Shown here: one piece after another, positions 1,222 to 29,323 of the stretch
Position numbering within the stretch: position 1 is the stretch's first letter
How the letters are laid out: every line of letters begins with the position of its first letter
Source: Geminisphaera colitermitum TAV2
GTDB lineage: Bacteria; Verrucomicrobiota; Verrucomicrobiia; Opitutales; Opitutaceae
Assembly (NCBI RefSeq): GCF_000171235.2
Contig: NZ_ABEA03000010.1
Span: forward strand, 14,590 to 46,589
Direction of reading: 5' to 3'
Length of the DNA: 32,000 bases
Made by a program: the position numbers and the translations under genes
The notes under the pieces: generated by a model
Told to the model about the DNA's origin: nothing
What the model saw: the letters and a program-made list of their open reading frames with translations, nothing else
The model's database searches: none

Positions 1222-2220
1222 ATGCGCCTCCTCACCAACCGCTCCGACGTCCTTGACCGCTTCCGCCACGCGGGCGAACACCATTCACCCATCCTCTGCC
1301 CCAATGCCGAGACGCCCGACGAAATCGAGGGCATCCTCCTCGGCGCACAACGTCACCTGCATCGTCAGTCCCCCCCCCCCCCCTCCGCCGCTACGCCTGC
1401 TCCAACGCGAATCACCATTGGCATTGGTTTTACCGCCAGTTACCCCGACCACCCGCAACTGGGACGCCTTGCGTTACCCGGACGTTCCCTTGCAGACACC
1501 GCTCATATCTGGCTGTATTGGATTTCCAATTACGCAGACCGGTCCGGTCTGTTTGACGACATCGACGTGATCCCCTTTCTCGATCACGGCTGGGCTCCGC
1601 ATGACGCCGACCTCGAACTCATGCACGAGACATGGTTTCAGGACGCGCTCGGCATCCTGATGTTTGATGCCAGCGCGTTCGACCCCGGGGAAAACATCCG
1701 TCTCACCGCCGCCTTCGCCGCTCGCGCCCGGGCTCGTGTAGTCATCGAAGCCTGCCCCGACAAGGTGTATGAACACGCCGAGCTTCTGCGCAACAACCTC
1801 AACGAAGCCGACCTGCTCTCCGATCCTTCCTTTGTCGAAAACTACGTCCGGCAGACCGGTGTTGATCTCATCGTTCCCAACCTCGGCACCGAGCACCGCA
1901 CCGCCAGCGCCGCAGCGCTCGAATACCGTCGTGACCTTGCCTGCGACATCACCCGGCGTGTTGGTCCGATCCAAGCGCTGCACGGCACCAGCAGTCTCGG
2001 CGGCAGGCTTGGCACCGTTGGGACCGACGGCATCGTGAAAATCAACTACTACACCGCCATGGCCCGCGCCGCTACCAGCGCCTTGCAAGCCTCCCTCCCC
2101 CCCCCCCCCCCCTCCACGCGTCCGCTTCCCATTGTCCAAGCCTGCGGCAGTCACATCCATTGCACTCGACGCGAGGCCATTGCCCAAAACATCGCCGCCA
2201 CCCTCGCCGCGCTCTCCTGA
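1222..2220 (+). CDS. Class II (FBA/tagatose-bisphosphate type) aldolase-family protein with two poly-Pro inserts
   Basis: ATG at 1222 lies in the frame of ORF 946-2220; the part upstream of 1222 overlaps pfkB and the repeat. Blocks resemble recalled GatY/FbaA motifs: IPFLDHGW, ILMFDASAF, VPNLGTEHR, ALHGTSSL, VKINYYTAM. C14 (1370-1383) and C16 (2097-2112) are read as PPPP and PPPPP. Confidence 0.55.
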   Translation: MRLLTNRSDVLDRFRHAGEHHSPILCPNAETPDEIEGILLGAQRHLHRQSPPPPSAATPAPTRITIGIGFTASYPDHPQLGRLALPGRSLADTAHIWLYWISNYADRSGLFDDIDVIPFLDHGWAPHDADLELMHETWFQDALGILMFDASAFDPGENIRLTAAFAARARARVVIEACPDKVYEHAELLRNNLNEADLLSDPSFVENYVRQTGVDLIVPNLGTEHRTASAAALEYRRDLACDITRRVGPIQALHGTSSLGGRLGTVGTDGIVKINYYTAMARAATSALQASLPPPPPSTRPLPIVQACGSHIHCTRREAIAQNIAATLAALS

Positions 2221-4511: not shown

Positions 4512-4539
4512 GGCAAGGGGGGGGGGGGGGAGGAGAGGA

Positions 4540-5404: not shown

Positions 5405-6964
5405 TCATGACGATTCAACTTGAACGGAGCGGTTCGGGCTGAGGCTCCGAACTACGGGACATGTCAGTTGGGCGCGGGGGGTGAGCGTGTAAACATGGGG
5501 GCGCGGGCGGGCGGTGTCGCGGATTTTTGTAACGAGTTCGCGGATACGCTGCTGGCTGGCCGTCTCCGTGGGTTTCACTTTGAGGTAACGTTGCACGATG
5601 CCGCGGTTGTAGTTGTCCATGCGGTTGTCGCTGCCGGTCCATTTTTCGACGAGGGCTTCGAGTTGCGGGCGGACGGCGTCAAAACTGACGGGATGTGGCA
5701 CGTCTTTGAGCTGCCAGTGTTCGGCTTGAGCGACGCCGCGGTCGGCGTGGGCGACAAGGGCACGCCATTGCATGACGAGTTCGAGGACGGCGGCGGATTG
5801 TTTCGCCTGCGGCGTGTCGGGGCGTGTGGCAAGGTTGATGCCTGCGGCGAGTTGGGCGGCGGTCCAGGTGCCGATGGTTTGGTTGTCAATGGTCAGGGTG
5901 TGGCTGCCGGGCGCGAGTCCGGTGATGACAAGGGTTTCTCGGTTGAGGTCGTCGGTGAAGGGAACGTAGTCGAGCGCGGGCGTGGCGTTTTTCTCGATGG
6001 GACAGGGGAGGGCGGCGGCGTTGACGGTAAAGGTGAGGGTGGCGTTTTGTTCCAAGCCGTCGCCCGCGGTGGTGGTGGTGTGCGTGAGGTCGGTGACGGT
6101 GGCGTTGCGGGTTTCAGTGATGCGGGGGGCGGAGGAGGCGGGCGAAGCATCGATGGCCACATGCGAGATTTCGGCGGGAGCCCCCTGGCTTTTGAGGAAG
6201 TAGTAGGCCATGACAAGGTGACCGGCCTGGCGCGGGTGGACGCGGTCGGGGCCGATAAGGGTGAAGGCGGGGTCGGCTTGCTGGAGTTTCGCGTTGAGCG
6301 CGGTCATGGGGTGGTGGATTTCGATAAGCCCGATGCGGCCGTTGCTGGCGGCGGCGGTGTCGCGGGCGAATTGAGCGCAGTCAGCGAGGGCGAGAGAGTT
6401 GACGCCGGGGAGGTTGGGGCGGTCGCTCTTCATGGTTTCGTCGTAGATCGAGGGGGTGAGGAGCTGCACGCGCGCGCCGTCGGCTTGGAGGCGGGCGATG
6501 AGTTGTGTCATGTTTTTTCGATACGCGGCGAGGGCGTCGGCGCGGCGCTTGGCGATGCCGGGCGCGGGTTCGGTGTCGGGGGTGTTGGGGTCGGCGGGGG
6601 GGGGGAGGGGGGCGTAGAGGCTGCGGCTGACGTCGTTCATGCCCATCATGATGGTGGCGACGGTGGGTTTTTTGGTGTCGGAAACGATGTCCCAGTCATA
6701 GCGGCGGAGGGCACCGGCGGCGGAGTCGCCGGAGATTCCGCAGTTGTAGATGTCAATGGTGCGGTCGGGAAAGCGTGTGGCGTAGTAGGCGGCGATCCAG
6801 GTGTGGTAGTATCCGTTTTGCGTGACGCTGTCGCCGACGACGGCCCAACGGTCGCCGTCGCGGAAGAGGTCGGCAGTGGCGGTGATGGTGTCGGCGCGGG
6901 CAGAGGCGGCGATGAAAACGAGCGCGGTGAGCAGCAGGGCGGAGACGGAGATATGATGGCGCAT
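5405..6964 (-). CDS. Secreted SGNH/GDSL-family hydrolase with C-terminal extension
   Basis: 519 aa with a signal peptide (SALLLTALVFIAASARA). SGNH blocks are VVGDSVTQNG, CGISGDSA, MMGMNDV and DRVHP. An internal G10/G6 tract (6596-6612) is read as PLPPP. Confidence 0.75.
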   Translation of the reverse strand: MRHHISVSALLLTALVFIAASARADTITATADLFRDGDRWAVVGDSVTQNGYYHTWIAAYYATRFPDRTIDIYNCGISGDSAAGALRRYDWDIVSDTKKPTVATIMMGMNDVSRSLYAPLPPPADPNTPDTEPAPGIAKRRADALAAYRKNMTQLIARLQADGARVQLLTPSIYDETMKSDRPNLPGVNSLALADCAQFARDTAAASNGRIGLIEIHHPMTALNAKLQQADPAFTLIGPDRVHPRQAGHLVMAYYFLKSQGAPAEISHVAIDASPASSAPRITETRNATVTDLTHTTTTAGDGLEQNATLTFTVNAAALPCPIEKNATPALDYVPFTDDLNRETLVITGLAPGSHTLTIDNQTIGTWTAAQLAAGINLATRPDTPQAKQSAAVLELVMQWRALVAHADRGVAQAEHWQLKDVPHPVSFDAVRPQLEALVEKWTGSDNRMDNYNRGIVQRYLKVKPTETASQQRIRELVTKIRDTARPRPHVYTLTPRAQLTCPVVRSLSPNRSVQVESS

Positions 6965-7697: not shown

Positions 7698-7726
7698 TAC
7701 GGGGAGAGGGGGGGGGGGAGGAGCGG

Positions 7727-9364: not shown

Positions 9365-9477
9365 GACAGGGTAAATATTGCTGCGCAATGTGTGCTCGTG
9401 GTGCGTGTGTATGGGGGGGGGGGCAAGGGATCGGAGCGGCGTTTTGGAGAGAAGAACGCCGCTGCGTCAGAAGTTCG

Positions 9478-10374: not shown

Positions 10375-10444
10375 GGTGTGTATGTTTGATGTGGACAGGG
10401 ATAAAAGGGAGGCCCTGGCAAGGGGGGGGGGGGGGGGACGCTCA

Positions 10445-11590: not shown

Positions 11591-11817
11591 GGAGATTTTT
11601 GCGATAAAATTAAAAATAATCTGTTTTTAATTATAAATAATGTCAAGGCGGTTTTTATTGGAATCATTAAGATGGCCAAGGGGGGGGGGGAGGGGGGGCG
11701 TGATTTCCCAGTGTTTTTGCAAATGCGCTCCGGAAGTGTTGGGCAGTCTTGCCACAGCGACTGTTAAGTGAGGAAGTCGGTGGTTTCTGAGTTTTTTGGC
11801 CGTCAAATCATCCTGCC
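11591..11817. promoter_or_regulatory. Divergent intergenic region (lacI-type regulator / fucosidase) with an AT-rich block, an inverted repeat and a G11-A-G7 tract
   Basis: 11595-11675 is strongly AT-rich in a GC-rich genome. Inverted repeat attaaaaa (11609-11616) / tttttaat (11624-11631). Homopolymer at 11680-11698. No promoter or operator consensus could be assigned. Confidence 0.3.
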
Positions 11818-17789: not shown

Positions 17790-18115
17790 AACCGCGAATG
17801 AACGCGAATAGACGCGAATAACTGAGGTTACGTGGAACATTGTGGCGCGGGCGTCTCGCCCGCATCTGAGGAATGTGCCTCTCAGCCTTGTTCCAGGGCG
17901 GCGCTCCGCGCCGTTTGCGGGCGAGACGCCCGCGCCACGCGTAGGGGCTTCGCTTGCGAAGCCCGCGTATGCAGGACGTGGCCTCAAATGGCGTGCGCGG
18001 GCGTCGCAAGCGACGCCCCTACAGCGGGCGAGACGCCCGCGCCACTTTCCAAGCATACGTAACGTCAGTGAACCCTGTCATGTTATTCGCGTTTCATTCG
18101 CGACCATTCGCGGTT
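17790..18115. repeat. Composite nested palindrome between convergent S8 protease and carB genes
   Basis: Outer arms of three 10-nt units: aaccgcgaatgaacgcgaatagacgcgaataac (17790-17822) and gttattcgcgtttcattcgcgaccattcgcggtt (18082-18115). They enclose a ~204-nt module (17842-18045) that recurs at 23862-24046. Confidence 0.8.
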
Positions 18116-18172
18116 GCTTCGGCGAAGCAGGCAGGGGATTCGCAAGCGAAGTCCCCCCCCCCCTGCGACGGA

Positions 18173-21100
18173 TCACGCCAGAGTGACGTTGCCTTTGTAG
18201 TGCTGGATGGGACGGACGCCGATGCGCTGGCTCTTGAGCGCCTTGATGCCGGAGAGCGCGGCGAAGGCGCCTGTAATGGTCGTCATGATACACACACTGT
18301 GCGCATAGGCGGCGGAACGAATCTTGTTCTCGTCCTGACGCGGGATCATGCCGCTGGGCGTGTTGATCACGAGCTGGATCTGGTTGTTCTTGATCATGTC
18401 GATCGTGTTGGGACGGCCTTCATCGATCTTGGCAAGGCGCGTCACGGGCACGCCGCAATCGGCAAGGTGCTGCGCGGTGCCGCTGGTGGAGTAAATCGTG
18501 AAACCGAGCTTGATCAACTGGCGGGCGAGATCGACGGCGCGCTTCTTGTCGCTGTCCTTGACGGAGAGAAACACGTTGCCGCCGGTCGGCAGCGGAGGAC
18601 GCGCGGCGGCCTGCGCCTTGGCGAAGGCCACGCCGAGGTCGGCATCAAGTCCCATCACCTCGCCGGTGGAGCGCATCTCGGGGCCAAGCGTGATGGTGGA
18701 GCCGGGGAAACGAACAAAGGGGAACACGGCCTCCTTCACGCACCAGTGCTTGGGCGTCTGCTCATGCGTGAAGCCAAGGTCGGCGAGTTTTTGGCCGGTC
18801 ATGATCTTGGCGGCGAGTTTGGCGAGGGGCACGCCGATGGCCTTGGCGACGAAGGGCACGGTGCGCGAGGCGCGAGGGTTGACCTCAAGGACGTAGAGTT
18901 CGTTGTCCTTGATCGCAAACTGGATGTTCATGAGGCCGATGACGTTGAGTTCGCGGGCGAGGGCGTGCGTGGCCTTGCGAACGGTCTCCAGCATGGCGCG
19001 CCCGAGGGTGTGCGGGGGCATGACCATGGAGGCATCGCCGGAGTGCACGCCAGCGAACTCGATGTGCTCCAACATGCCGCCGATGACGGAGGTAGTGCCG
19101 TCGCTGATACAATCGACGTCGAGTTCGATGGCGTCTTCGAGGAACTTGTCGATGAGCACGGGCTTGTCGGGCATGACCTCGAAGGCCTGGCGGATGACGG
19201 CCTTGAATTCGTCTTCGTTGTAAACGATGAACATGCCGCGTCCGCCGAGCACGAACGAAGGGCGGAGGAGGACGGGGAACCCGACTTCCTTGGCGAAAAC
19301 GAGCGCCTCGGTCTCGTTCATCGCGGTGCGGTTGGCGGGTTGTTGCAGGTTGAGCTTGTGGAGGATGGCGGCGAAGAGTTTGCGGTCTTCGGCGATTTCG
19401 ATGGATTCGGGCGAGGTGCCGATGATGTTGACGCCGTTGGCCTTGAGGGCGGAGGCGAGGTTGAGCGGGGTTTGTCCGCCGAATTGCACGATGGCGCCGT
19501 CGCACTGTTCCTGCTGGTAGATTTCGAGGACGTCTTCGAGGGTGAGCGGTTCGAAGTAGAGGCGGTCGGAGGTGTCGTAGTCGGTGGAGACGGTTTCGGG
19601 GTTGGAGTTGACCATGACGCTTTCGTAGCCGATCTCGCGCAGGGCGAAGGAGGCGTGGACGCAACAGTAGTCAAACTCGATGCCCTGGCCGATGCGGTTG
19701 GGGCCGCCGCCGAGGATCATGATTTTCTTTTTTCCGGTCGGCGGGAGGACTTCGTTTTCGTCGCCGTAGCTGGAATAATAATACGGGGTGAACGCCTCGA
19801 ACTCGGCGGCGCATGTATCCACAAGTCGATACGTGGTGCCGATGCCGGCGGCCTTGCGCGCGGCGCGCACGGTGGCGAGGTCGGAGCCGAGGTAGTGCGC
19901 GAGTTGGACGTCGGAGAAGCCGAATTGCTTGGCGCGGCGGAAGAGCGCGACAGGGAGGGGGGGGGGGGGGGGGGGCGGCGCTACGCGCCGAACGTCGAAC
20001 GCCGAACGTCCAACATCCAACGTCGAAGTGCCGGAATTGGATGCGAGTGTGGACGGGAGCGACTGCCGGGCTTGAGTGCCGTCGGTTGGATGTTGGATGT
20101 TGGGCGTTCGATGTTCGATGTTCGGCGAAGCCGCGGCTTTGATCTGCGTTTCCAGTTCGTAGATTTCGCGGAGTTGGGTGAGGAACCAGGGGTCGATTTT
20201 CGAGAGGTCGAAAATCTGTTCCACGGTGTAGCCGGCCATGAAGGCGTAGCGGATGTAAAAGATGCGCTCGAAGTTGGGCGTGGCGAGTTTGCTGCGGATG
20301 AGCTTGTCGTCGGGTGCTTCGTCGAGGCCGTATTTGCCGCCGCCGCCGAAGCCGCGCGCGCCGATTTCGAGGGAGCGGAGCGCCTTTTGCATCGACTCCT
20401 TGAAGGTGCGTCCGATGGCCATGGCTTCGCCGACGGACTTCATGGCGGAGGTAAGCATGGTGTCGGCGCCGGGGAATTTTTCGAAGGTGAAGCGCGGGAT
20501 TTTGGTGACGACGTAGTCGATGGTGGGTTCGAAGGAGGCGGGGGTGAGGCGCGTGATGTCGTTGCGCAATTCGTCGAGCGTGTAGCCGACGGCGAGTTTG
20601 GCGGCGATCTTGGCGATGGGGAATCCGGTGGCTTTGGAGGCGAGGGCGGAGGAGCGGGAGACGCGGGGGTTCATCTCGATGACAACCTGGCGACCTGTCT
20701 TGGGGTCGATGGAAAACTGGATGTTGGAGCCGCCGGTTTCGACGCCGATTTCGCGGATGACGGCGAAGGAGGCGTCGCGCATGACTTGATACTCTTTGTC
20801 GGTGAGCGTCATGGCGGGGGCGACGGTGATGGAGTCGCCGGTGTGGACGCCCATGGGGTCGAAGTTTTCGATGGAGCAGATGACGACGCACTGGTCCTTG
20901 TGGTCGCGCATGACTTCCATCTCGTATTCTTTCCAGCCGAGCAGGCACTCTTCGACGAGCACTTCATGGACGGGGGAGAGGTCGAGGCCGTTGGCGACGA
21001 TTTGCTCGAATTCTTCCTTGTTGTAGGCGATGCCGCCGCCGGAGCCGCCGAGGGTGAAGGAGGGTCGGATGATGAGGGGATAGTTGCCGATTTCCTCGGC

Positions 21101-21574
21101 GGCGGCGCGGGCCGCGTCCATGCTTTTGACGGTGCGCGAGCGGGCAACGTCGAGGCCGATCTTGAGCATGGCTTGCTTGAAGAGTTCGCGGTCTTCGCCT
21201 TTGGCGATGGCGGCGGGTTTGGCGCCGATCATCTCGACGCCGTGTTTTTGGAGGATGCCTTTCTCGTGCAGTTGCATCGAGAGATTGAGCGCGGTCTGGC
21301 CGCCGAGGGTGGGGAGGAGGGCCGAGGGTTTTTCGGTTTCGATGATCTTTTCGAGCATCTCGACCGTGAGGGGCTCGATGTAGGTGACGTCGGCAAATTC
21401 CGGGTCGGTCATGATGGTGGCCGGGTTGGAATTTACGAGGATGACGCGGTAGCCTTCCTCTCGCAAAGCTTTGCAGGCTTGAGTGCCGGAGTAATCAAAC
21501 TCGCAGGCTTGGCCGATCACAATGGGACCGGCACCAATGATGAGGATGGACTTCAGATCAGTGCGCTTGGGCAT
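18173..21574 (-). CDS. carB: Carbamoyl-phosphate synthase large subunit
   Basis: Start [33 protein letters not shown] (ATG at 21574). Both ATP-grasp halves are present (second: [24 protein letters not shown]), and so is the MGS-like C-terminus. Length is 1133 aa because of an internal insertion at 19957-20127. Confidence 0.95.
19957..20127. repeat. G19 tract plus 142-nt palindromic repeat embedded in-frame in carB
   Basis: G19 lies at 19957-19975. Left arm cgccgaacgtcgaacgccgaacgtccaacatccaacgtcg starts at 19986. Right arm cgtcggttggatgttggatgttgggcgttcgatgttcgatgttcggcg ends at 20127. A related single arm lies at 23794-23838. Confidence 0.85.
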
Positions 21575-21966
21575 GGACGTGGATTTCGTGGAGGGTTGCG
21601 ACCGGTGGGCAGTCTGCGCAAGTGGAAAGCCCGAGAAATTCCTAGTTTGCGCGGTGAATATGAGAAATACGCACGAGCAGGCTTTTGTTGCAGTTTTTTT
21701 GCTTATATTGGGGGAGCCCAACCACGAATTACGCGGAGCGGCTGTACCGCAAGCGAAGTGGCGGAAGGAATGGCCACAAGAAACACAAAGAAACAAGCGG
21801 CGCATGGAATCCTCCATTGCGCATATAAGCGCGCGAGCGTCTCGCCCGCAACTGTTGCCACTCAGCCTGAGACCGCGACATCCTTACCGGCACCGGTGAA
21901 TGCCAGGCTGGGGCCTGCACTCCCAGAGGCGCATCGCGTGTGTAGTGGACCGTCAACTACAACCGG

Positions 21967-22581: not shown

Positions 22582-23793
22582 TCAGTGGCGAAGTTGGTGG
22601 CCGTGGCGGACAAGGGGAGGGGAGCCTTTGGCAGCGGTGGCGTTGAGTTTGTCGAGGACGGCAGCGAGTTGGCGGCGTTTTTCGTCGGTCCGGGCAAACA
22701 TGTCGAGTTGCACGCCGTCGGCGGCATCGACGCCGGAGAGTTTCACGCTGACGAGTCGCAGGGGACGGTGCTGCAACCAGGCTTGGCGGAGGAGCGGGGC
22801 AACGTGGGGATAAAAGAGGGTTTCAAGGTCGGTGGCGTCGGACAGGCTGTGCGCGGCGGAGCGTTGGGTGAAGTCACCGTAACGCACTTTGACGGTAAGG
22901 GTCCGCACGCGTTTGCCGTCGGCGCGGATGTCGGGCATGAGTTCGTCGATCATGCCCTTGGCCACGCTTTCGATGGTGGCGAAATCTCCGACGTCGGCAG
23001 GGAATGTTTCTTGTTTGGAGTAGCTTTTGGCGTCCTCGTGGTCGGTGTGCACGGGGCGGTCGTCTTCGCCGCGTGCGGCGGCAACGAGGTCGGGCCAGCC
23101 GGAGCCGAGCGTGGCGGCGAGTTCGCGTTCGCCGGTGGCCCCGGCACCGGGCGCGAGGCAGCGGGCGGCAAGGGTTGTAATGTCACTGACGATACGCAGG
23201 CCGCGGGCGTTGAGTGTTTCCTCCGTTTTCTGGCCGACGCCGGGGAGTTTGCCGATGGAGAGCGGGGCGAGGAAGGCGGCTTCTTCGCCGGGCGGCACGA
23301 CGACGAAGCCGCGGGGTTTGCGAAGTTTGGAGGCGATTTGGGCAACAAGGCGGTTGGTCGCGATGCCCATGGAGACGGGGATTTGCAGTTGTTGCCAGAT
23401 GCGGTTTTGCAGGTCGCGGATGGCGGCGACGATTTCATCCTGCGTCTTGAAACCGCACATCGTCACGTCGAGGTAGCCTTCATCGATGGAATTGCGCTGG
23501 ACGATGGGGGTGAGGTTTTCGCAGAGGTCAAACATGCGGCGCGACACGTCGCCGTAACTGCCTTTGTGCGGGAGGAGGATGAGGTCGGGGCAGATTTTGA
23601 GGGCGCGGGCGGTGGGCATGGGCGTGTAAACTCCGCAGGCGCGCGCCTCGTAGCTGGCGGAGGCAATGATGCCGCGTTCGCGTCCGCCGACCGCGACTTT
23701 CTTGCCGCGATACTGAGGCTGCAACGCCAGCTCGACCGACACGAAAAACGCGTCGGCGTCGAGGTGCACGATGTTGGGCAGCGGGCGGCTCAT
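22582..23793 (-). CDS. dinB: DNA polymerase IV (Y-family)
   Basis: ATG at 23793 gives MSRPLPNIVHLDADAFFVSVE (canonical HxDxDxFFxxVE). Downstream motifs are SIDEGYLDVT and LPGVGQKT. The upstream part of ORF 22582-24060 is repeat-derived. Confidence 0.9.
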   Translation of the reverse strand: MSRPLPNIVHLDADAFFVSVELALQPQYRGKKVAVGGRERGIIASASYEARACGVYTPMPTARALKICPDLILLPHKGSYGDVSRRMFDLCENLTPIVQRNSIDEGYLDVTMCGFKTQDEIVAAIRDLQNRIWQQLQIPVSMGIATNRLVAQIASKLRKPRGFVVVPPGEEAAFLAPLSIGKLPGVGQKTEETLNARGLRIVSDITTLAARCLAPGAGATGERELAATLGSGWPDLVAAARGEDDRPVHTDHEDAKSYSKQETFPADVGDFATIESVAKGMIDELMPDIRADGKRVRTLTVKVRYGDFTQRSAAHSLSDATDLETLFYPHVAPLLRQAWLQHRPLRLVSVKLSGVDAADGVQLDMFARTDEKRRQLAAVLDKLNATAAKGSPPLVRHGHQLRH

Positions 23794-23838
23794 GCGTCGA
23801 ACATCCAACATCGAACGCCGAACGTCCAACATCCAATC
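23794..23838. repeat. Orphan arm of the 7-nt-unit (cgaacgt/ccaacat) repeat family
   Basis: gcgtcgaacatccaacatcgaacgccgaacgtccaacatccaatc abuts the dinB start codon. It belongs to the same family as the arms inside carB. Confidence 0.7.
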
Positions 23839-23861
23839 TGATGTTGCGCAGAGTTTGGGAA

Positions 23862-24046
23862 GTGGCGCGGGCGTCCCGCCCGCTTCGGGAGCGCCGGGCA
23901 CCAGTCCGGCACCTGATGCGGGCGAGACGCCCGCGCCCCGCGTAGGGGCTTCGCTTGCGAAGCCCGCGAATGCAGGACGTGGCATCGAATGGCGTGCGCG
24001 GGCGTCGCAAGCGACGCCCCTACAGCGGGCGAGACGCCCGCGCCAC
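23862..24046. repeat. Second copy of the ~200-nt hairpin-rich module
   Basis: Begins gtggcgcgggcgtcccgcccgc and ends gcgggcgagacgcccgcgccac. The central stretch cgcgtaggggcttcgcttgcgaagcccgcg...ggcgtgcgcgggcgtcgcaagcgacgcccctacagcgggcgagacgcccgcgccac is near-identical to 17842-18045, in the same orientation. Confidence 0.85.
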
Positions 24047-24316
24047 TTTGCCATCAGCACGATGCCGGCAGGATGCCGCGCCGCCTGTCCCTCCCCCCCC
24101 CCCGCGCACTAAATATATAATACAGCGAAAGCCTTATTGTTATATGTATAGTAGGTAGGTGATTCACCTGACATGTAGTGTATAAAGCGAAAAATATCTG
24201 AATAAAACGGTTGATAAAGAGGTGGAGGGAGGCAGAGTAGAGAGGCTGAACCGGTCGCGGCCAGATCCGTGACGGTGCAGATTCAACATCAACAAGATCA
24301 TCAACAAACGACAGTC

Positions 24317-25147
24317 ATGAGTATTCAAAATAATGATATGATAAGCGCAGGTCCGCTTTGGCGGGCGCTGCTCGTTCCCCTCGCGGGAGCGTTAATGACG
24401 CTGGGGGCCGTGACAACGGCCTTCGCCGCAACTCCAGGATCGCAGCTCATCACCATGCCGACCGTGACGGTGGGCGACATTGGCAACGTTGCCGATTCGA
24501 CTGGCTTCGGTTCGGTGAGCTACGAGTATCAGATTGGGAAGTATGAGGTGACGAACGGGCAATATGCGGCGTTTTTGAACGCCGTGGGCGTGACCAGCAC
24601 GAACAACGCGCTTGGGCTCTACAACAGCAACATGGGCAGCAATGCCAGCTACGGTGGCATCACATGGAACGCAGGCAGCAGCCAATACGAGGCGAAGACC
24701 GGGTGGGAGAACAAGGCCGTGAATTACGTATCGTTTTACGATGCGGCGCGGTTCACGAATTGGCTGACGACCGGGGACACGGAGAACGGGCTGTACACGT
24801 TTAACGGAGCGACGAGTATCACGATCAATCCGGACCATGCAGCCAGCAGCGGCTGGGCAGTGGCGAGCGAGGACGAGTGGTATAAAGCGGCGTATTACAA
24901 TGGAGACGGGACGTATCACACGTATCCGGTGACAGGGTCCCTGAACCAGACCACGGCGAATTACTATAGCGGTGGGTATGCGATGCCTGGAGGGACGTAT
25001 ATAGCGGATGTGGATTATTATGATGATGTGACTGGAGCTGGTTCGACGTATGGTACGTTCCAGCAGGGGGGCAACGTTTATGAGTGGAGTGATACGCTTA
25101 TAAACGGAACTGCCCGTGGGGTGCGTGGCGGCTCGTTCGACATATAA
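24317..25147 (+). CDS. DGR variable (target) protein, FGE/SUMF1-type C-lectin fold. The ORF as read ends at a TAA inside the VR; an intact frame would run to 25345.
   Basis: Signal peptide LLVPLAGALMTLGAVTTAFAA. FGE-type motifs are YEYQIGKYEVTNGQYAAFLNAV, VNYVSFYDAARFTNWL and GGNVYEWSD. The C-terminus RGVRGGSF enters the VR. GTG 24269 and ATG 24338 are alternative starts. Confidence 0.85.
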   Translation: MSIQNNDMISAGPLWRALLVPLAGALMTLGAVTTAFAATPGSQLITMPTVTVGDIGNVADSTGFGSVSYEYQIGKYEVTNGQYAAFLNAVGVTSTNNALGLYNSNMGSNASYGGITWNAGSSQYEAKTGWENKAVNYVSFYDAARFTNWLTTGDTENGLYTFNGATSITINPDHAASSGWAVASEDEWYKAAYYNGDGTYHTYPVTGSLNQTTANYYSGGYAMPGGTYIADVDYYDDVTGAGSTYGTFQQGGNVYEWSDTLINGTARGVRGGSFDI

Positions 25148-25243
25148 CGTTACGCTCCTCGCCTCTTCGGCCCGCTACCTCGACGCTCCCGCCGGCGAGT
25201 GCTCGACTCCATCGGTTTTCGTGTCGTGTCGTTGTCCAGCCTT
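25111..25243 (+). repeat. DGR variable repeat (VR), 133 nt
   Basis: Aligns to 25618-25747. The first 28 nt and last 33 nt are identical. Internal differences occur only at TR adenines, plus 1-nt and 2-nt insertions in the VR. Confidence 0.9.
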
Positions 25244-25469
25244 GACGGCCCCCAAGTGCCCGAGCCGAATGATATAGCGGCTATAATTGGAGTGTTGATG
25301 TTAGGAGTCGTTTTGATGAGAAAGGGGGGCCGCCGCACCCTTTAGGCTTTTACCCTTTTACCCTTTATGAATGGACCCGCGAAAGCGGGGCCATTTCGGG
25401 GGGACTGGGGGGCTTGCCCCCCAGTGTTCTTTGAATCCGAAACCGGCGAAGCCGGTCGAAAAAAAATTT

Positions 25470-25570
25470 AACCACGGAGGACACGGAGGAACACGGAGAA
25501 AAGGCAGGAAGGTTTTTGTAATTATAAAAGCTGACTTTTCTCGGCTTGAACCTCCGTGTCCTCCGTGGTT
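25470..25570. repeat. ccacggagg palindromic element, copy 1 (between VR and TR)
   Basis: Left arm aaccacggaggacacggaggaacacggag (25470-25498). Shortened right arm ctccgtgtcctccgtggtt (25552-25570). An extra ctccgtggtt lies at 25579-25588. Confidence 0.85.
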
Positions 25571-25617
25571 TAAAAAAGCTCCGTGGTTAAAGAAACTTGG
25601 GGGTTCCGGGACACTTA

Positions 25618-25747
25618 TGCCCGTGGGGTGCGTGGCGGCTCGTTCAACAATAACGATACGAACCTCGCCTCTTCGGCCCGCAACAACAACGATCCCGCCA
25701 ACGAGAACAACAACATCGGTTTTCGTGTCGTGTCGTTGTCCAGCCTT
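25618..25747 (+). repeat. DGR template repeat (TR), 130 nt
   Basis: Reads in frame as RGVRGGSFNNNDTNLASSARNNNDPANENNNIGFRVVSLSSL, with 10 AAC and 1 AAT codons in the diversified core. It is non-coding in context, with no plausible start or RBS for a real gene. Confidence 0.9.
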
Positions 25748-26048
25748 CGGAACAGGCGTCCAGCCTGGTAGGCCAGAACGACGTGTGGTGTGGCACGGAT
25801 TAAATGCCGTGCTCGCTCACGCCGCCGTGCCGTTATCAGGAAGGCACCCGGCGCTCCCGCGCGGAGGAAAGAGGGGACACATGGCGACGAAGCGCAAGTC
25901 TCGTCCGCCCCCCTTCCGGCCTCCGGGCAAATAACACCCGTGCCCGGCTGCGGCTATGTAGGCGAGGCGACTCGCCCAACGACGCGGCCGGGCCTTCTTT
26001 TTTCAAGAAAACAAACCTTCAAGCCTTCAAACCTTTTAAACCACGGAG

Positions 26049-26158
26049 GACACGGAGGAACACGGAGAAAAGGCAGGAAGGTTTTTGTAATTATAAAAGC
26101 TGTCTTTCCTCGGCTTGAACCTCCGTGCCCTCCGTGTCCTCCGTGGTTTAAAAAAACA
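26049..26158. repeat. ccacggagg palindromic element, copy 2
   Basis: Same 29-nt left arm (26049-26077). Right arm ctccgtgccctccgtgtcctccgtggtt (26131-26158). The core is near-identical to copies 1 and 3. Confidence 0.9.
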
Positions 26159-26167
26159 AAAAAATCC

Positions 26168-26551
26168 ATGAACACCAAAATTGAACAGGAAGCATTGACT
26201 GAGAAAATCATCGGCGCGGCCATCGAAGTGCACAAGCAACTCGGTCCGGGCTTGCTTGAATCCGCCTACGAAGCCGCCCTTGCGCTGGAACTGGCGCTGC
26301 GCGGAGTCGGGCTGGAGAAGCAAAGGGTGCTTCCGGTTAGCTACAAGGGAACCCCGATCGAGATCGGTTATCGCATCGATCTTCTGGTCGAGGGCAAGAT
26401 CGTCGTCGAACTCAAGGCCGTGGAGGCCCTGCATCCGCTCCATGAGGCGCAGCTCCTCACTTACCTGAAACTTTCGGGCTGCAAGGTGGGGCTCCTGATC
26501 AATTTCAATGTTCCTCTCTTGAAAAACGGCATCGTCCGCCGGGTGCTGTGA
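26168..26551 (+). CDS. GxxExxY protein (PD-(D/E)XK nuclease-like superfamily)
   Basis: 127 aa from ATG 26168. Contains [13 protein letters not shown] (G-x-x-E-x-x-Y), [14 protein letters not shown] and AQLLTYLK, which is the typical family layout. The upstream part of ORF 25790-26551 is repeat/non-coding read-through. Confidence 0.85.
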
Positions 26552-26571
26552 TTTTTTTCCCAAACCTTTTT

Positions 26572-26681
26572 AACCACGGAGGACACGGAGGAACACGGAG
26601 AAAAGGCAGGAGGGTTTTTGTAATTATAAAAGCTGACTTCTCTCGGCTTGAACCTCCGTGCCCTCCGTGTCCTCCGTGGTT
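26572..26681. repeat. ccacggagg palindromic element, copy 3
   Basis: Same 29-nt left arm (26572-26600). The right arm (26654-26681) is identical to copy 2. An extra cctccgtggtt lies near 26700-26710. Confidence 0.9.
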
Positions 26682-26731
26682 AAAATTTTCTGCGTCGTAT
26701 CCTCCGTGGTTCATTAAAAAAAAGCCCGAAT

Positions 26732-27088
26732 ATGTCGAATGCATCGAAATCGGCCAATGAGCCCGTGTTGCTGGCGCGCTGGTATGACTACATGAAGTGG
26801 CTGCTGGACCGGGTGGACGGCTTTCCGAAAAACCAGCGGTTTATCTTTGGCACGCGGCTGGCGGACGCGGCGCTGGACATCCATGAGTTGCTGGTGGAGG
26901 CGAGCTACACGCGGGAGAAGGCGGAGTTGCTGCGCCGGGTCAACGTGCGGGTGGAAAAGTTGCGCTGGCTGGTGCGGCTGGCGAAAGACCGCCGCCTCAT
27001 CACGTCGCGCCAATACGAATACAGCGCCGAGCAGTTGACCGGCTGCGGCAAAATGCTCGGCGGCTGGATTAAAAACACTGAACGCTAA
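26732..27088 (+). CDS. avd: Avd-like accessory variability determinant (four-helix-bundle / 23S rRNA IVS protein family)
   Basis: 118 aa, predicted all-helical and basic. LARWYDYMKWLLDRVDGFPKNQRFIFGTRLADAALDIHELLVEA resembles four-helix-bundle/Avd proteins. It lies immediately upstream of the RT. Confidence 0.8.
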   Translation: MSNASKSANEPVLLARWYDYMKWLLDRVDGFPKNQRFIFGTRLADAALDIHELLVEASYTREKAELLRRVNVRVEKLRWLVRLAKDRRLITSRQYEYSAEQLTGCGKMLGGWIKNTER

Positions 27089-27108
27089 TGACTGAAAAAC
27101 AGAAATTT

Positions 27109-27219
27109 AACCACGGAGGACACGGAGGAACACGGAGTTTCAAACCGAGGGAAGGATGTATTTTCTAATAAATACAATTTCCTGTCTTTTCTCCGTGTTC
27201 CTCCGTGTCCTCCGTGGTT
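27109..27219. repeat. ccacggagg palindromic element, copy 4 (perfect 29-nt arms, core inverted and diverged)
   Basis: Arms at 27109-27137 and 27191-27219 are exact reverse complements. The reverse complement of the core resembles the cores of copies 1-3 (aaaagRcaggaa...ctcggYttgaa). Confidence 0.9.
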
Positions 27220-27238
27220 TAAAAATCAGGACTTCCCC

Positions 27239-28315
27239 ATGCCCCGAAAGCACCGTCACCTGTTCGAGAAGGTAATCACGCTGGAAAACCTGTTTGCCGC
27301 CGCCGAAAACGCGTCGCGTGGCAGGAGCGGCAAGGTGCCGGTGGCGCGAGGATTTGCGGAACTGGAAAAGACCGTCGTCACGCTGCGAGACGAATTGCTG
27401 GCGGGCACGTGGCAGCCGGGCCGGTATTATTACTTCACGATCACCGACCCGAAAGAGCGTGAGGTGGCCGCCGCGCCGTTCCGCGATCGCGTGGTGCACC
27501 ATGCGCTGGTGCGCGTGCTGGAGCCGATTTTCGAACCGCGTTTCATCGCGGATTCCTTCGCGTGCCGCCCCGGCAAGGGCACCCACGCCGCGCTCGCCCG
27601 CGCCCGCGAGTTCACCCGCCGCCACCGCTACTGCCTCAAGTGCGACATCAAAAAATATTTCCCCAACATCGACCACGCGCTGCTCCTGCGCGAGGTCGGG
27701 CGGGCGGTGGACGACGCGAGGGTGCTCGAACTCATCGGGCGCATCCTCGCCAGCCATGCCGACGGCGCGGCGCAGGAATGGCGGGCGGGGGCCGGTTTGT
27801 TCGACGTGGAGCAACGCCCGCGAGGCTTGCCCATCGGAAACCTCACCAGCCAGTTTCTGGCCAACGTACACCTGCACCCGCTCGACCTGTTCGTGAAGCA
27901 GACGTTGCGCGTGAAAGGCTACGTGCGCTACGTGGACGACTTTTTGCTTTTCGGCGACGACCGCGCCGCGCTCAAGGCGCACGGCCAGCGGGTGCGCGAG
28001 TTCGTCAGGACGCTGCGCCTGCGGGTGCATCCGGACAAGTTCCGGCTCTCGCGCACGGAGCAGGGCGTGGATTTTGTGGGTTTTGTGGCCTTTCCTGACG
28101 GGCGTATCCGCGTGCGCGACAGCAACGTGCGCCGCTTCACGCGCCGCCTGCGGCGGCAGGCGTGGTGCGTACGCACGGGGAGGATGGATTTTGACGACCT
28201 GTGCCAGCGGGCGTGTTCGTGGGCCGCCCACGCGGGCCATGCGCAGAGCCGGGGGTTGTTGCAGGATATTTTTTCCGGAATTTTCCATTTGCCAAATAAA
28301 GGCTCATGGGCCTAA
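27239..28315 (+). CDS. DGR-type reverse transcriptase
   Basis: 358 aa. RT motifs are FRDRVVHHAL, KCDIKKYFPNIDH, LPIGNLTSQFLANVHL (DGR-typical I/LGxxxSQ instead of QGxxxSP), YVRYVDDFLLF (YxDD), LRVHPDK and GVDFVGF. There is no maturase or endonuclease extension. Confidence 0.92.
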   Translation: MPRKHRHLFEKVITLENLFAAAENASRGRSGKVPVARGFAELEKTVVTLRDELLAGTWQPGRYYYFTITDPKEREVAAAPFRDRVVHHALVRVLEPIFEPRFIADSFACRPGKGTHAALARAREFTRRHRYCLKCDIKKYFPNIDHALLLREVGRAVDDARVLELIGRILASHADGAAQEWRAGAGLFDVEQRPRGLPIGNLTSQFLANVHLHPLDLFVKQTLRVKGYVRYVDDFLLFGDDRAALKAHGQRVREFVRTLRLRVHPDKFRLSRTEQGVDFVGFVAFPDGRIRVRDSNVRRFTRRLRRQAWCVRTGRMDFDDLCQRACSWAAHAGHAQSRGLLQDIFSGIFHLPNKGSWA

Positions 28316-28345
28316 TCATTGGCAAGTTCACCAAAATACCAAACT

Positions 28346-29323
28346 ATGGCTCGCATCTATAACGACATCACCGAGACGATTGGCAATACACCGCTCGTCC
28401 GCCTCAACCGCACCGCCGCCGCTCATGGCGCCCAAGCCGAGATCCTTCTCAAACTGGAGTTCTTTAATCCGCTCTCCTCCGTTAAGGACCGCATCGGTTT
28501 CGCCATGATCGACGAGGCCCTGAAATCCGGCCGTATCAACAAGGACACGATCCTCATCGAACCCACCTCCGGCAACACCGGCATTGCGCTCGCCTTTGTC
28601 GCCGCCGCCAAGGGTCTCAAGCTTATCCTCACCATGCCCGAGACGATGTCGCTCGAACGCCGCAAGCTCTTGAAAGTTCTCGGCGCCAAGCTCGTTCTCA
28701 CCGAAGGCAGCAAGGGCATGAAGGGCGCCATCGCCAAGGCCGAGGAACTCAACAAGCAGATCGCCAACAGCGTCGTGCTCCAGCAATTTGCCAATCCCGA
28801 CAATCCCGAAATCCACCGCAAGACGACCGCCGAGGAAATCTGGCGCGACACCGATGGCGCAGTCGATTTTGTCGTTTCGGGCGTCGGCACCGGCGGCACC
28901 ATCACCGGCGTCGGCGAAGTGCTCAAATCCCGCAAGCCCGGCGTCAAACTCGTCGCCGTCGAACCTGCCGGCTCCCCCGTCCTTTCCGGTGGCAACCCCG
29001 GCCCGCACAAGCTTCAGGGCATCGGCGCTGGCTTCATTCCCTCGGTGCTCAACACCAAGATCATCGACGAAATCATCCAGGTGAAGGAAGACGACTCGGG
29101 GCCCATTTCCAAGCAAGTGAACACCCTTGATGGCATTCCCATCGGCATTTCGTCCGGCGCGGCCGTGTGGGCGGCGATCCAACTCGCCAAGCGTCCGGAG
29201 AACAAGGGCAAGAAGATCGTTGCGATCATTCCCTCTGCCGCCGAGCGCTACCTGTCGTCCTGGCTGTTTGCCGACGTCAACGTCGAGAGCGACAACATCG
29301 ACGCCCTTCTCGCCGCCAAGTAA
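28346..29323 (+). CDS. cysK: Cysteine synthase A (O-acetylserine sulfhydrylase)
   Basis: Start [25 protein letters not shown]-lysine motif NPLSSVKDR, plus TSGNTG and [10 protein letters not shown]. Confidence 0.92.

What the first reader, a model, noticed from the sequence alone, without database searches (positions are those of the whole stretch)
24317..28315. Complete DGR with adenine-only TR/VR mismatches and a non-canonical, spread-out gene order
Seen in sequence:
- TR 25618-25747 aligns with VR 25111-25243 at the 3' end of an FGE/C-lectin-type gene.
- The flanks are identical: 28 nt at the 5' end and 33 nt at the 3' end.
- All ~16-17 internal substitutions fall at TR adenines. For example, TR aac aac aac gat ccc gcc aac gag corresponds to VR tac ctc gac gct ccc gcc ggc gag. 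No TR C, G or T is substituted.
- The TR core carries 10 AAC and 1 AAT codons.
- Downstream lie an Avd-like four-helix-bundle ORF and an RT with IGNLTSQ and YVDD.

Established knowledge: adenine-specific mutagenic retrohoming, AAY-rich TRs, an Avd plus RT pair, and C-lectin/FGE-fold targets define DGRs.

Inference: this is an active or recently active chromosomal DGR in a PVC-type bacterium. Its order is target/VR, TR, unrelated nuclease-like ORF, avd, RT. The TR lies ~1.0 kb upstream of avd and ~1.5 kb upstream of the RT. In the Bordetella phage prototype (mtd-avd-TR-brt) the TR abuts the RT gene. This raises the question of how the TR RNA is made and recruited.
Basis: partly seen in the sequence, partly recalled or inferred. 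Interest (0 to 1): 0.85.

Follow-up and report, generated by a model that had tools for sequence, protein, structure and literature searches.

The report
Rearranged bacterial DGR with broken target
This is a genuine diversity-generating retroelement in a termite-gut Verrucomicrobium (Geminisphaera colitermitum / Opitutaceae TAV lineage) that rewrites the tip of a surface lectin-like protein, but in this sequence the rewritten region carries a frameshift and a stop codon, and the odd gene order comes from a relocated template module and inserted hairpin repeats, not from a new mechanism.

Summary
The TR/VR pair is real. All 16 substitutions sit at TR adenines (chance about 2e-11). Avd passes NCBI's DGR-Avd model. 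The RT's best solved relative is the Bordetella phage bRT, and it has the IGxxxSQ and YVDD motifs.

- The VR is 3 nt longer than the TR. Insertions of +1 and +2 nt next to AAC codons shift the frame and create a TAA at 25145-25147, so the target ORF is truncated inside the VR.
- Four ~125-nt hairpin repeats occupy every gap between the parts.
- The nearest RT relatives have the order avd-RT-TR.

Sister strains TAV3 and TAV4 carry the same cassette, with machinery about 99% identical. Their VR alleles differ at TR-adenine columns (24 of 28 A columns against 1 of 102 other columns on the VR side). This shows recent activity.

A covariance model built only from relatives' post-TR RNA matches 25742-25998 at full length (E about 4e-8). 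The TR therefore moved together with its own structured spacer and terminator, which explains how it can work 1.5 kb from the RT gene.

Verdict: a new member of a known kind with modest architectural novelty.

The parts
24317..25147 (+). Target ORF as assembled: 276 aa with an N-terminal signal-like hydrophobic segment and an FGE-sulfatase / C-type-lectin fold. It is truncated inside the VR.
   Evidence: ORF list. Pfam PF03781, E=1.6e-12. Identical to P0010, named 'formylglycine-generating enzyme family protein [Geminisphaera colitermitum]'.
24317..25345 (+). Original extent of the target gene. With the two VR insertions removed it reads through to a VPEP + hydrophobic + basic tail (PEP-CTERM-like).
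   Evidence: Frame analysis. The intact 326-aa allele in TAV3 locus L082 (6012-6992) and the intact 333-aa P0001 have the same tail. Paralogs hit PF07589. This tail itself gave no HMM hit.
25111..25243 (+). Variable repeat (VR), 133 nt.
   Evidence: Alignment with the TR shows 16 substitutions, all at TR adenines, plus two insertions.
25143..25147 (+). The 1-nt insertion (~25143) and the premature TAA stop it creates (25145-25147).
   Evidence: It lies within the AAC-AAT-AAC codons of the TR.
25199..25200 (+). The 2-nt insertion that restores the original frame. It lies directly 5' of the AAC-AAC-AAC run.
25210..25243 (+). IMH-like 3' end of the VR. It is identical in all four VR alleles, and its adenines are never changed.
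   Evidence: In TAV3/TAV4 (L082, L084) the matching TR end differs at 7 non-A positions, as expected for IMH*. In the window it is identical.
25404..25425 (+). Terminator-like GC stem after the natural end of the target gene.
   Evidence: Consensus scan only.
25459..25583 (+). Hairpin repeat copy 1. Its arms are made of tandem CACGGAGGA units.
   Evidence: RNA fold -57.9 kcal/mol, z=-10.
25598..25610 (+). Segment upstream of the TR (TGGGGGTTCCGGG) that can pair with 25847-25859. It resembles the cPRT-Stop duplex of the Bordetella DGR RNA.
   Evidence: Duplex prediction in the window and in 8 relatives, z from -1.5 to -3.9. The concept comes from Handa et al., bioRxiv 10.1101/2023.10.23.563531.
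25618..25747 (+). Template repeat (TR), 130 nt, with 28 adenines and 10 AAC + 1 AAT codons.
25742..25998 (+). Structured spacer RNA directly 3' of the TR. It is homologous to the post-TR region of related Verrucomicrobial DGRs.
   Evidence: Covariance model R1 was built only from 7 relatives. It gives a full-length match of 33.2 bits, E=4e-8. Structure counts: 90.9% of cells paired and 20 of 29 pairs with compensatory changes.
25942..26003 (+). Branched GC-rich hairpin followed by CTTCTTTTTTC, a likely intrinsic terminator that ends the TR RNA.
   Evidence: Fold. The homologous element in relatives is followed by a T-run. The simple scan missed it because of its large loop.
26028..26155 (+). 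Hairpin repeat copy 2.
   Evidence: Fold -74 kcal/mol.
26168..26551 (+). GxxExxY / PD-(D/E)XK family ORF (127 aa). It is not a DGR component.
   Evidence: TIGR04256, 153.5 bits against a cutoff of 35. PF13366, E=1.9e-43. Absent from DGR loci of relatives, apart from one unlinked copy in L041.
26561..26688 (+). Hairpin repeat copy 3.
26732..27088 (+). avd, the accessory variability determinant (118 aa).
   Evidence: NF033474 DivGenRetAVD, 107.7 bits against a cutoff of 80. PF22296 bAvd, E=4.9e-16. PHROG 3206 'Avd protein of DGR', E=4.7e-25.
27098..27228 (+). Hairpin repeat copy 4, with its loop inverted relative to copies 1-3.
   Evidence: (I1-I3, I7).
27239..28315 (+). DGR reverse transcriptase (358 aa). 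It has IGNLTSQ, YVDD, and equivalents of bRT Arg74 and Ile181.
   Evidence: Best PDB match is bRT 8ub7 at E=1.1e-44, against 1.2e-28 for group II RTs. PF00078. PHROG 1423, E=1e-111. 518 relatives found in genomes, and 45 of the best 80 have an A-biased TR/VR pair. The motif definition is from PMC7826257.

Best explanation
This is a chromosomal diversity-generating retroelement of the Geminisphaera colitermitum / Opitutaceae TAV lineage (Verrucomicrobiota).

How it works:
- A non-coding TR RNA unit (about 25598-26003) is transcribed. It consists of an upstream pairing segment, the 130-nt TR, a ~250-nt structured spacer and a terminator.
- The RT-Avd complex, encoded about 1-1.5 kb downstream, binds this RNA in trans through the spacer.
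- The complex copies the TR into cDNA and misincorporates opposite adenines.
- The cDNA replaces the VR at the 3' end of a secreted FGE/C-type-lectin-fold protein that has a PEP-CTERM-like anchor.

Shown here: the parts, the adenine-only pattern, VR turnover between strains, and conservation of the RNA module.
Inferred by analogy to the Bordetella system: RNA binding, cis-priming and retrohoming.

Current state of the target: the VR allele carries +1 and +2 nt insertions next to AAC codons. These are most likely RT slippage products. They truncate the target, so the target is currently off. Because both homology flanks are intact, a later retrohoming event could overwrite the defect (inference).

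Origin of the spread-out order (target/VR, TR, GxxExxY, avd, RT): it is derived. Relatives have avd-RT-TR. Here the TR module sits between target and avd, a GxxExxY ORF is inserted, and four copies of a widespread hairpin repeat fill every gap.
For: - Adenine-only substitutions: 16 of 16, chance about 2e-11.
- Avd scores above NCBI's curated DGR-Avd cutoff.
- The RT is closest to bRT and has the [I/V/L]GxxxSQ motif plus the Arg74 and Ile181 equivalents.
- The target has the FGE fold.
- Four DNA alleles (window, L082, L083, L084) have machinery about 99% identical with no indels in coding parts. Their VRs differ by 9-25 positions. 24 of 28 TR-A columns vary. Only 1 of 102 non-A columns varies on the VR side, and the other 7 non-A differences are TR-side changes. 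Fisher p=1.7e-15.
- L082 and L084 have 9 VR differences but none in the 2.9 kb downstream.
- A fifth VR variant is seen in the intact protein P0001.
- All three VR indels (two here, one in L083) adjoin AAC codons. This matches Wu et al., who found indels in 7% of DGRs, 74% of them next to AAC.
- Model R1, built from relatives only, hits 25742-25998 at full length. Covariation supports the structure.
- An upstream/downstream duplex is present in all 9 sequences tested.
- Relatives' order: 41 of 45 have the TR after RT or avd, at a median of 46 nt. Verrucomicrobial relatives L002-L009 are all avd-RT-TR.
Against: - The target ORF is interrupted in this sequence and in L083 and L084. Present-day function in these strains is not shown.
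- IMH and IMH* are identical in the window. In the Bordetella system that would blur donor and recipient, although Wu et al. report such cases.
- No GC-rich inverted repeat lies next to the VR.
- No promoter for the TR unit could be identified.
- The pair counts were made on an alignment fitted to the model.
- There are no expression, cDNA or read-level data.
Confidence: 0.85

Rival explanations
1. The VR insertions are consensus or assembly artefacts from a culture that is heterogeneous at the VR. In individual cells the target would be intact, so the DGR would be complete and fully functional.
For: - The two insertions sum to +3 and lie exactly in the hypervariable AAC stretches, where mixed reads could be mis-joined.
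- L083 also has a 1-nt VR deletion, and the TAV assemblies used PacBio.
- The TAV4 assembly contains two versions of the locus, one of them next to an N-run.
- The Logan assembly of SRR6478749 breaks at the hairpins.
Against: - There are no indels in about 3 kb of adjacent coding sequence across four assemblies.
- The 276-aa truncated protein is recorded as such (P0010).
- Indels next to AAC are a documented DGR outcome.
Confidence: 0.25
2. The cassette is decaying in this strain. The target is a pseudogene, the parts have been split by mobile repeats and a foreign ORF, and the element no longer retrohomes.
For: - There is a premature stop in the VR.
- Three of four DNA alleles have a disrupted target.
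- Hairpin insertions lie between all genes.
- IMH equals IMH*.
- Terminator-like elements could uncouple transcription.
- Some relatives (L007, L010, L042) have the spacer but no detected TR.
Against: - RT and Avd are full length and about 99% conserved without indels.
- The TR keeps all its AAC codons, and the flanking RNA structure is kept.
- The same hairpin-split layout is present in strains whose VRs have clearly turned over. Splitting therefore did not stop activity.
Confidence: 0.15
3. The four hairpin repeats are working parts of the system and not passive insertions. They could be RNase III-type processing sites or insulators that release a discrete TR RNA and separate mRNAs. Alternatively they could be recombination sites that shuffle DGR modules.
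For: - All four copies in 32 kb lie inside the DGR, one in every gap, at a regular spacing of 569, 533 and 537 nt.
- They closely bracket the TR module.
- The stems are very stable.
- They are conserved at the same places in TAV3/TAV4.
- There are none in 27 kb of other TAV loci.
- The TR module has changed position relative to relatives.
Against: - The same arm sequence occurs in at least 120 metagenome contigs, none of them next to a DGR RT or Avd. It usually occurs once or twice per contig.
- DGR relatives lack the repeats.
- Copy 4 is inverted.
- No hairpin flanks the 3' side of the RT, so a simple hairpin-to-hairpin exchange does not explain the move.
Confidence: 0.1
4. It is not a DGR. 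The two repeats would be an ordinary duplication, or gene conversion among the many FGE/PEP-CTERM paralogs, diverging by normal mutation.
For: - The target belongs to a large paralog family, and its body is mosaic between strains.
- The VR-like region of paralog P0003 also resembles the TR.
Against: - Strict adenine specificity holds in four alleles.
- AAC-rich non-coding TR.
- Adjacent Avd and DGR-type RT.
- The paralog shows 11 non-A differences, unlike the cognate VR.
Confidence: 0.01

Closest known systems
Bordetella phage BPP-1 DGR (mtd-avd-TR-brt), the prototype
   Same: - Homologous RT: bRT is the best PDB hit at E=1e-44, and both have the IGxxxSQ and YxDD motifs and Arg74/Ile181.
- Homologous Avd.
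- Adenine-only TR-to-VR differences and an AAC-rich TR.
- The VR lies at the 3' end of a C-type-lectin-fold protein.
- The TR is flanked by an upstream segment that pairs with a structured downstream spacer.
   Different: - This element is chromosomal, not phage-borne.
- avd lies after the TR, not before it. The TR is 985 nt from avd and 1492 nt from the RT gene.
- An unrelated ORF and four hairpin repeats are interspersed.
- IMH and IMH* are identical here, and there is no GC hairpin next to the VR.
- The target is a PEP-CTERM-like anchored FGE-fold protein, not a tail fibre.
- The VR carries frameshifting insertions.
Architecture B2 DGRs (avd-RT-TR) of Wu et al. 2018, as found in Verrucomicrobial MAGs (L002 Verrucomicrobia Prado240, L003 Prosthecobacter debontii MAG, L004, L009 Luteolibacter)
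   Same: - Nearest RTs at 54-65% identity, with matching Avd and FGE-type targets.
- Near-identical TR coding pattern (RGGSWNNN...NENNNIGFR).
- Homologous post-TR spacer RNA and terminator.
   Different: - In those loci the TR module follows the RT stop by about 30 nt.
- Here the module lies between target and avd.
- Those loci lack the GxxExxY ORF and the hairpin repeats.
Treponema denticola and Legionella pneumophila chromosomal DGRs, which diversify surface proteins (from my own knowledge and the introductions quoted)
   Same: They are chromosomal DGRs that diversify a cell-surface protein. The Treponema TvpA target also has an FGE-type C-lectin fold.
   Different: They use different anchoring (lipoprotein signals there, a PEP-CTERM-like tail here), different accessory genes (HRDC in Treponema) and a different order of parts.
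Small palindromic intergenic repeats (MITE-like or REP-like elements such as Correia/NEMIS, ERIC and BIME), as a comparison for the hairpin repeats only (from my own knowledge)
   Same: They are about 100-200 nt long with terminal inverted arms, are intergenic, occur in either orientation, form very stable hairpins, have many copies across genomes, and can sit inside operons.
   Different: - The arms are built of tandem 9-mers (CACGGAGGA).
- The arm sequence is conserved across many environmental metagenomes, while the loops vary.
- There is no Rfam family or paper match.

Membership tests
Diversity-generating retroelement (DGR) | Reverse transcriptase of the DGR clade with the [I/V/L]GxxxSQ motif in place of QGxxxSP | tested here: met
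   IGNLTSQ and YVDD are present. The best solved relative is bRT at E=1.1e-44, against 1.2e-28 for group II RTs. PHROG 1423, E=1e-111. Homologs at 40-65% identity sit beside A-biased TR/VR pairs. The motif definition is from PMC7826257. No formal phylogeny was made.
Diversity-generating retroelement (DGR) | A TR/VR repeat pair whose differences fall at TR adenines | tested here: met
   16 of 16 substitutions are at A, and the TR has 28 A in 130 nt. Two insertions are also present.
Diversity-generating retroelement (DGR) | The VR lies within the coding sequence (usually the 3' end) of a target gene with a C-type-lectin or Ig fold | tested here: inconclusive
   The fold criterion is met (PF03781). 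However, the ORF stops inside the VR because of a +1 insertion. Intact alleles exist in TAV3 (L082) and as P0001.
Diversity-generating retroelement (DGR) | Accessory protein Avd (present in most DGRs, not all) | tested here: met
   NF033474 scores 107.7 bits against a curated cutoff of 80.
Diversity-generating retroelement (DGR) | IMH at the VR end, with a non-identical IMH* at the TR end | tested here: inconclusive
   The 34-nt 3' block is identical in the TR and VR of the window. In TAV3/TAV4 (L082, L084) the TR end differs from the VR end at 7 non-A positions. Wu et al. note DGRs with identical IMH and IMH*.
Diversity-generating retroelement (DGR) | GC-rich inverted repeat just downstream of the VR (found in about 34% of DGRs) | tested here: not met
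   No inverted repeat occurs within about 150 nt after 25243. The nearest stem is at 25404-25425. This feature is not universal.
Diversity-generating retroelement (DGR) | TR-flanking RNA elements: an upstream/downstream duplex and a structured spacer | tested here: met
   Full-length CM hit at 25742-25998, E=4e-8. Duplex between 25598-25610 and 25847-25859. Covariation in 12 sequences. The assignment of individual stems to the Bordetella elements is an inference.
Diversity-generating retroelement (DGR) | Evidence of diversification: VR variation between close relatives restricted to TR-A sites | tested here: met
   There are four DNA alleles plus one protein allele. 24 of 28 A columns vary, against 1 of 102 non-A columns on the VR side.
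Diversity-generating retroelement (DGR) | Demonstrated mutagenic retrohoming (cDNA synthesis and VR replacement) | not testable with these tools
   This needs culture work or read-level data.
GxxExxY protein family (TIGR04256 / PF13366) | HMM score above the curated cutoff | tested here: met
   153.5 bits against a cutoff of 35, and PF13366 at 148 bits against 22.
PEP-CTERM sorting signal (PF07589 / TIGR02595) | HMM match to the C-terminal PEP motif, TM helix and basic cluster | tested here: not met
   No hit for the tail, even at E<=10. The motif VPEP + hydrophobic + RKGGRR is visible by eye, and paralogs do hit PF07589. It is therefore called 'PEP-CTERM-like' only.
Integron attC cassette array (considered for the hairpin repeats) | Imperfect hairpin with R/L boxes, an unpaired central spacer and extrahelical bases; uniform orientation; a nearby integrase or a long array | tested here: not met
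   The basal stems are perfect for 20-25 bp. Copy 4 is inverted. There is no integrase in the window. Metagenome contigs carry one or two copies, not arrays. No attC covariance model was available.

The most novel reading that the evidence does not exclude
The hairpin repeats may be more than passive insertions. They bracket each DGR module (TR RNA unit, GxxExxY, avd, RT) at about 535-570-nt intervals. They could act as recombination or processing boundaries that allowed the self-contained TR-RNA module to be moved within the cassette, and that now release it as a discrete RNA. That would be a natural mechanism for shuffling DGR architecture. A second unexcluded reading is that slippage at AAC codons gives the DGR a reversible on/off switch for the surface protein, because a later retrohoming event would overwrite the frameshift.
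Probability: 0.12. Interest if true: 0.6.

Novelty: new member of a known kind. Interest (0 to 1): 0.35.

Why it matters
- **A tractable system.** The element sits in cultured termite-gut Verrucomicrobia (Geminisphaera colitermitum, Opitutaceae TAV3/TAV4). Sister isolates already show different VR alleles, so DGR activity, frameshifted 'off' alleles and their possible repair could be followed in the laboratory. Most known DGRs come from uncultured organisms.
- **A natural experiment on the TR RNA.** The TR has been relocated together with its conserved flanking RNA. This supports the recent structural model in which the TR RNA scaffold, not gene adjacency, recruits RT-Avd.
- **A separate lead.** The hairpin repeat family is widespread in environmental metagenomes and, as far as these searches show, undescribed.
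- None of this changes the known DGR mechanism.

Tried and rejected
- **Rfam search of 23500-28800:** it gave only sub-threshold miRNA-precursor look-alikes on the hairpins and no known RNA family.
- **NCBIfam on the RT:** there is no DGR-RT model. The best hit was group II RT, far below its cutoff, so classification rested on the PDB match, PHROGs and genomic context.
- **PDB sequence search with Avd:** no hit.
- **Exact-protein look-ups:** Avd, P0001, P0005 and P0010 are not on record. The DNA of the intact G. colitermitum allele could therefore not be fetched.
- **nhmmer with the relatives' spacer:** only a weak hit (E=0.0027). The covariance model was needed.
- **RNAalifold on the raw MAFFT alignment that included the TR:** the consensus was poor.
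- **Integron attC reading of the hairpins:** rejected.
- **GxxExxY gene as regular cargo of the hairpin element:** only 3 of 80 metagenome loci show this.
- **Remote extra targets:** there is no second VR in the window. Paralog P0003 has 11 non-A differences from the TR and is identical in TAV3 and TAV4, so it is not a current target.
- **Literature search:** nothing found for the hairpin sequence and nothing useful for GxxExxY.
- **Supplements of Wu et al.:** not held. Whether this DGR is already in their catalogue is unknown.

Full report
**1. The observation**

The TR is 25618-25747 and the VR is 25111-25243. A gapped alignment gives 16 substitutions, all at TR adenines. The 5' flank is identical for 28 nt and the 3' flank for 34 nt. 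The TR has 28 A in 130 nt, so 16 of 16 by chance is about 2e-11. In frame the TR reads ARGVRGGSFNNNDTNLASSARNNNDPANENNNIGFRVVSLSSL, with 10 AAC and 1 AAT codons.

One T is inserted at ~25143, inside AAC-AAT-AAC. Two nt are inserted at ~25199-25200, just 5' of AAC-AAC-AAC. The first insertion shifts the frame and makes a TAA at 25145-25147, so the ORF as assembled is 24317-25147 (276 aa) and ends inside the VR. After the second insertion the old frame resumes. It reads through IGFRVVSLSSL to a VPEP + hydrophobic + RKGGRR tail ending at 25345.

**2. The parts**

- The target has the FGE-sulfatase / C-type-lectin fold (PF03781).
- ORF 26732-27088 passes NCBI's curated DGR-Avd model (107.7 bits against a cutoff of 80). 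It also matches bAvd and the PHROG 'Avd protein of DGR'.
- ORF 27239-28315 is an RT. Its best solved relative is the Bordetella phage bRT (8ub7) at E=1.1e-44, ahead of group II RTs at 1.2e-28.
- The RT has IGNLTSQ and YVDD. It also has the equivalents of bRT Arg74 and Ile181, which promote adenine mutagenesis.
- ORF 26168-26551 is a GxxExxY / PD-(D/E)XK protein with no link to DGRs in the relatives.
- The neighbourhood is ordinary chromosome: carB, Uma2, dinB, cysK, an ECF sigma factor, glycosidases and a subtilase. There are no phage or integrase genes.

**3. Provenance and sister strains**

The truncated 276-aa target is identical to P0010, which a source names under Geminisphaera colitermitum. 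An exact look-up with the neighbouring cysK product returned three loci from the Opitutaceae TAV3 and TAV4 assemblies (L082-L084). These are termite-hindgut isolates sequenced with Illumina plus PacBio (PMC6952651). The loci are 96-98% identical to the window. A 1715-nt Logan contig from SRR6478749 is 100% identical.

From 25300 to 28400 the four versions are about 99% identical with no indels in coding sequence. All four VRs differ:

| Comparison | Result |
|---|---|
| TR-A columns that vary | 24 of 28 |
| Non-A columns that differ | 8 of 102 |
| ...of which TR-side changes at the 3' (IMH*-like) end in L082/L084 | 7 |
| ...of which a C>A at the 5' edge | 1 |
| Fisher test | p=1.7e-15 |
| L082 vs L084, differences in the 130-nt VR | 9 |
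| L082 vs L084, differences in the 2.9 kb downstream | 0 |

An intact G. colitermitum allele (P0001, 333 aa) shows a fifth VR variant.

**4. State of the target**

- L082 has an intact 326-aa gene.
- L083 has a 1-nt deletion inside an AAC codon of the VR.
- L084 has a 2-nt insertion mid-gene.
- The window has the +1/+2 pair.

All three VR indels adjoin AAC codons. Wu et al. 2018 found TR/VR length differences in 7% of DGRs, 74% of them next to AAC. Eleven caused frameshifts, and they proposed RT slippage. In my own scan 7 of 56 TR/VR pairs of relatives had indels.

The absence of any other indel in the adjacent 3 kb argues against general sequencing error. A consensus artefact from a VR-heterogeneous culture cannot be excluded without reads. 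Because both homology flanks are intact, a later retrohoming event should overwrite the defect. This is an inference.

**5. The gene order**

The literature already records great variety:
- Wu et al. describe 48 architectures (B1 avd-TR-RT, B2 avd-RT-TR, B3 TR-(avd)-RT), unrelated 'X' ORFs nested between parts, and TR and RT on opposite strands.
- Another survey found 122 VR/TR/RT patterns.

A scan of one genome per species with the RT found 518 relatives. Of the best 80, 45 had an A-biased TR/VR pair:

| Position of the TR | Loci |
|---|---|
| Downstream of RT or of RT-avd (median gap 46 nt) | 41 |
| avd-TR-RT | 1 |
| TR-(avd)-RT | 1 |
| More than 3 kb upstream of the RT | 2 |

The nearest, Verrucomicrobial, relatives (RT 54-65% identical) all have target/VR-avd-RT-TR. 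The window's order is therefore derived within its clade but is not unprecedented.

**6. How the TR RNA can work at a distance**

In the Bordetella system the TR must be flanked by an upstream segment and a downstream spacer. These wrap RT-Avd, position the primer and stop cDNA synthesis. Similar elements were predicted in 207 of 278 Avd-containing DGRs (Handa et al.).

I built a covariance model only from the post-TR regions of seven Verrucomicrobial relatives. It matches the window at full length at 25742-25998, directly abutting the TR (33.2 bits, E=4e-8). It matches the same place in the TAV loci and nothing else in 95 kb.

On the 12-sequence model alignment:
- 90.9% of cells pair.
- 20 of 29 pairs show compensatory changes.
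- No shuffle reached the observed values.
- Slid controls pair at 32-45%.
- Caveat: the alignment is fitted to the model.

A 12-13-bp duplex between a segment 8-20 nt upstream of the TR (25598-25610) and the spacer (25847-25859) is predicted. Counterparts with different sequences exist in all eight relatives. The module ends in a branched GC hairpin plus a T-run (25942-26003).

The TR thus moved with its whole RNA scaffold and terminator. This is enough to explain recruitment in trans. The assignment of individual stems to Bordetella elements, and the promoter, remain unknown.

**7. What spreads the cassette out**

Four ~125-nt hairpin repeats lie at 25459-25583, 26028-26155, 26561-26688 and 27098-27228. 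Their starts are 569, 533 and 537 nt apart, and the fourth has an inverted loop. They occupy every gap between the parts and fold at -58 to -74 kcal/mol. They are present at the same places in TAV3/TAV4. They are absent from DGR relatives and from 27 kb of other TAV loci.

Their arm, made of tandem CACGGAGGA units, occurs exactly in at least 120 metagenome contigs (capped):
- Half have an inverted partner within 600 nt, with a median inner distance of 136 nt.
- There are usually one or two per contig.
- None lies beside a DGR RT or Avd, and only 3 of 80 lie beside a GxxExxY gene.

They therefore belong to a widespread MITE-like family and are most simply read as insertions. Their density here and their tight bracketing of the TR module are unexplained. 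An attC/integron reading was rejected.

**8. Verdict**

This is a real, recently active DGR of a known kind.
- The target is interrupted in this sequence.
- The order is a derived rearrangement padded by repeats and a foreign ORF.
- The TR carries its own recruitment RNA.

Novelty is modest. The value lies in having cultured sister isolates with different VR alleles.

Noticed in passing
window 25459-25583, 26028-26155, 26561-26688, 27098-27228; also loci L085-L204: There is a family of long hairpin repeats whose arms are tandem 9-mers (CACGGAGGA)n starting TT(T/G)AACCACGG. The exact 20-mer arm occurs in at least 120 environmental metagenome contigs, with variable loops (median inner distance 136 nt). 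It has no Rfam family and no match in the paper library. Its copy number in the host genome could not be measured.
   Followed up: partly
window 1370-1383, 2097-2112, 4517-4530, 6596-6605, 7708-7718, 9413-9423, 10422-10437, 11680-11690, 18153-18163, 19957-19975, 24093-24103: There are eleven poly-G or poly-C tracts of 10-19 nt in 32 kb. Their lengths differ between strains. For example, the C11 tract just upstream of the DGR target's AT-rich leader is C18 or C13 in TAV3/TAV4. These could be slipped-strand switches, or they could be assembly-length noise.
   Followed up: no
window 19957-19975 (minus-strand carB ORF 18173-21817): A G19 tract lies inside the carbamoyl-phosphate synthase large-subunit ORF. 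It falls in an extra segment of about 120 aa between Pfam domains. The tract is G28 or G66 in TAV3/TAV4. It was not checked whether this insert is in frame in all strains.
   Followed up: no
window 17916-18051 and 23917-24053: A ~135-nt GC-rich palindromic repeat is present twice at 96% identity. One copy lies just upstream of the DGR target region, between dinB and the target.
   Followed up: no
window 24317-25110; L082-L084 6012-6760; proteins P0001-P0022: The body of the target gene is 15-30% divergent and mosaic between strains whose flanking DNA is about 99% identical. The gene belongs to a large paralog family of FGE-fold, PEP-CTERM proteins in TAV1, TAV4, TAV5 and G. colitermitum. This suggests gene conversion among paralogs.
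   Followed up: partly
L205/L206 4001-4960 (paralog P0003): The VR-like region of this paralog differs from the TR at 27 positions, 16 of them TR adenines. Its 3' end resembles the TAV3/TAV4 TR end more than the cognate VR end does. It is identical in TAV3 and TAV4. It looks like a former target or a relative of the TR source, not a current target.
   Followed up: partly
L083 and L084 (both from GCA_001653825.2, TAV4): The TAV4 assembly holds two versions of the DGR-cysK region on different contigs. One (L084) is nearly identical to the TAV3 version and sits next to a run of N. This could be a duplication, a scaffolding error or mixed material.
   Followed up: no
L007 2337-2490, L010 6795-6998, L042 5783-5962: The post-TR spacer model also hits three Verrucomicrobial loci where no AAC-rich TR was found and the RT match is short. 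These may be degraded DGRs that keep the spacer.
   Followed up: no
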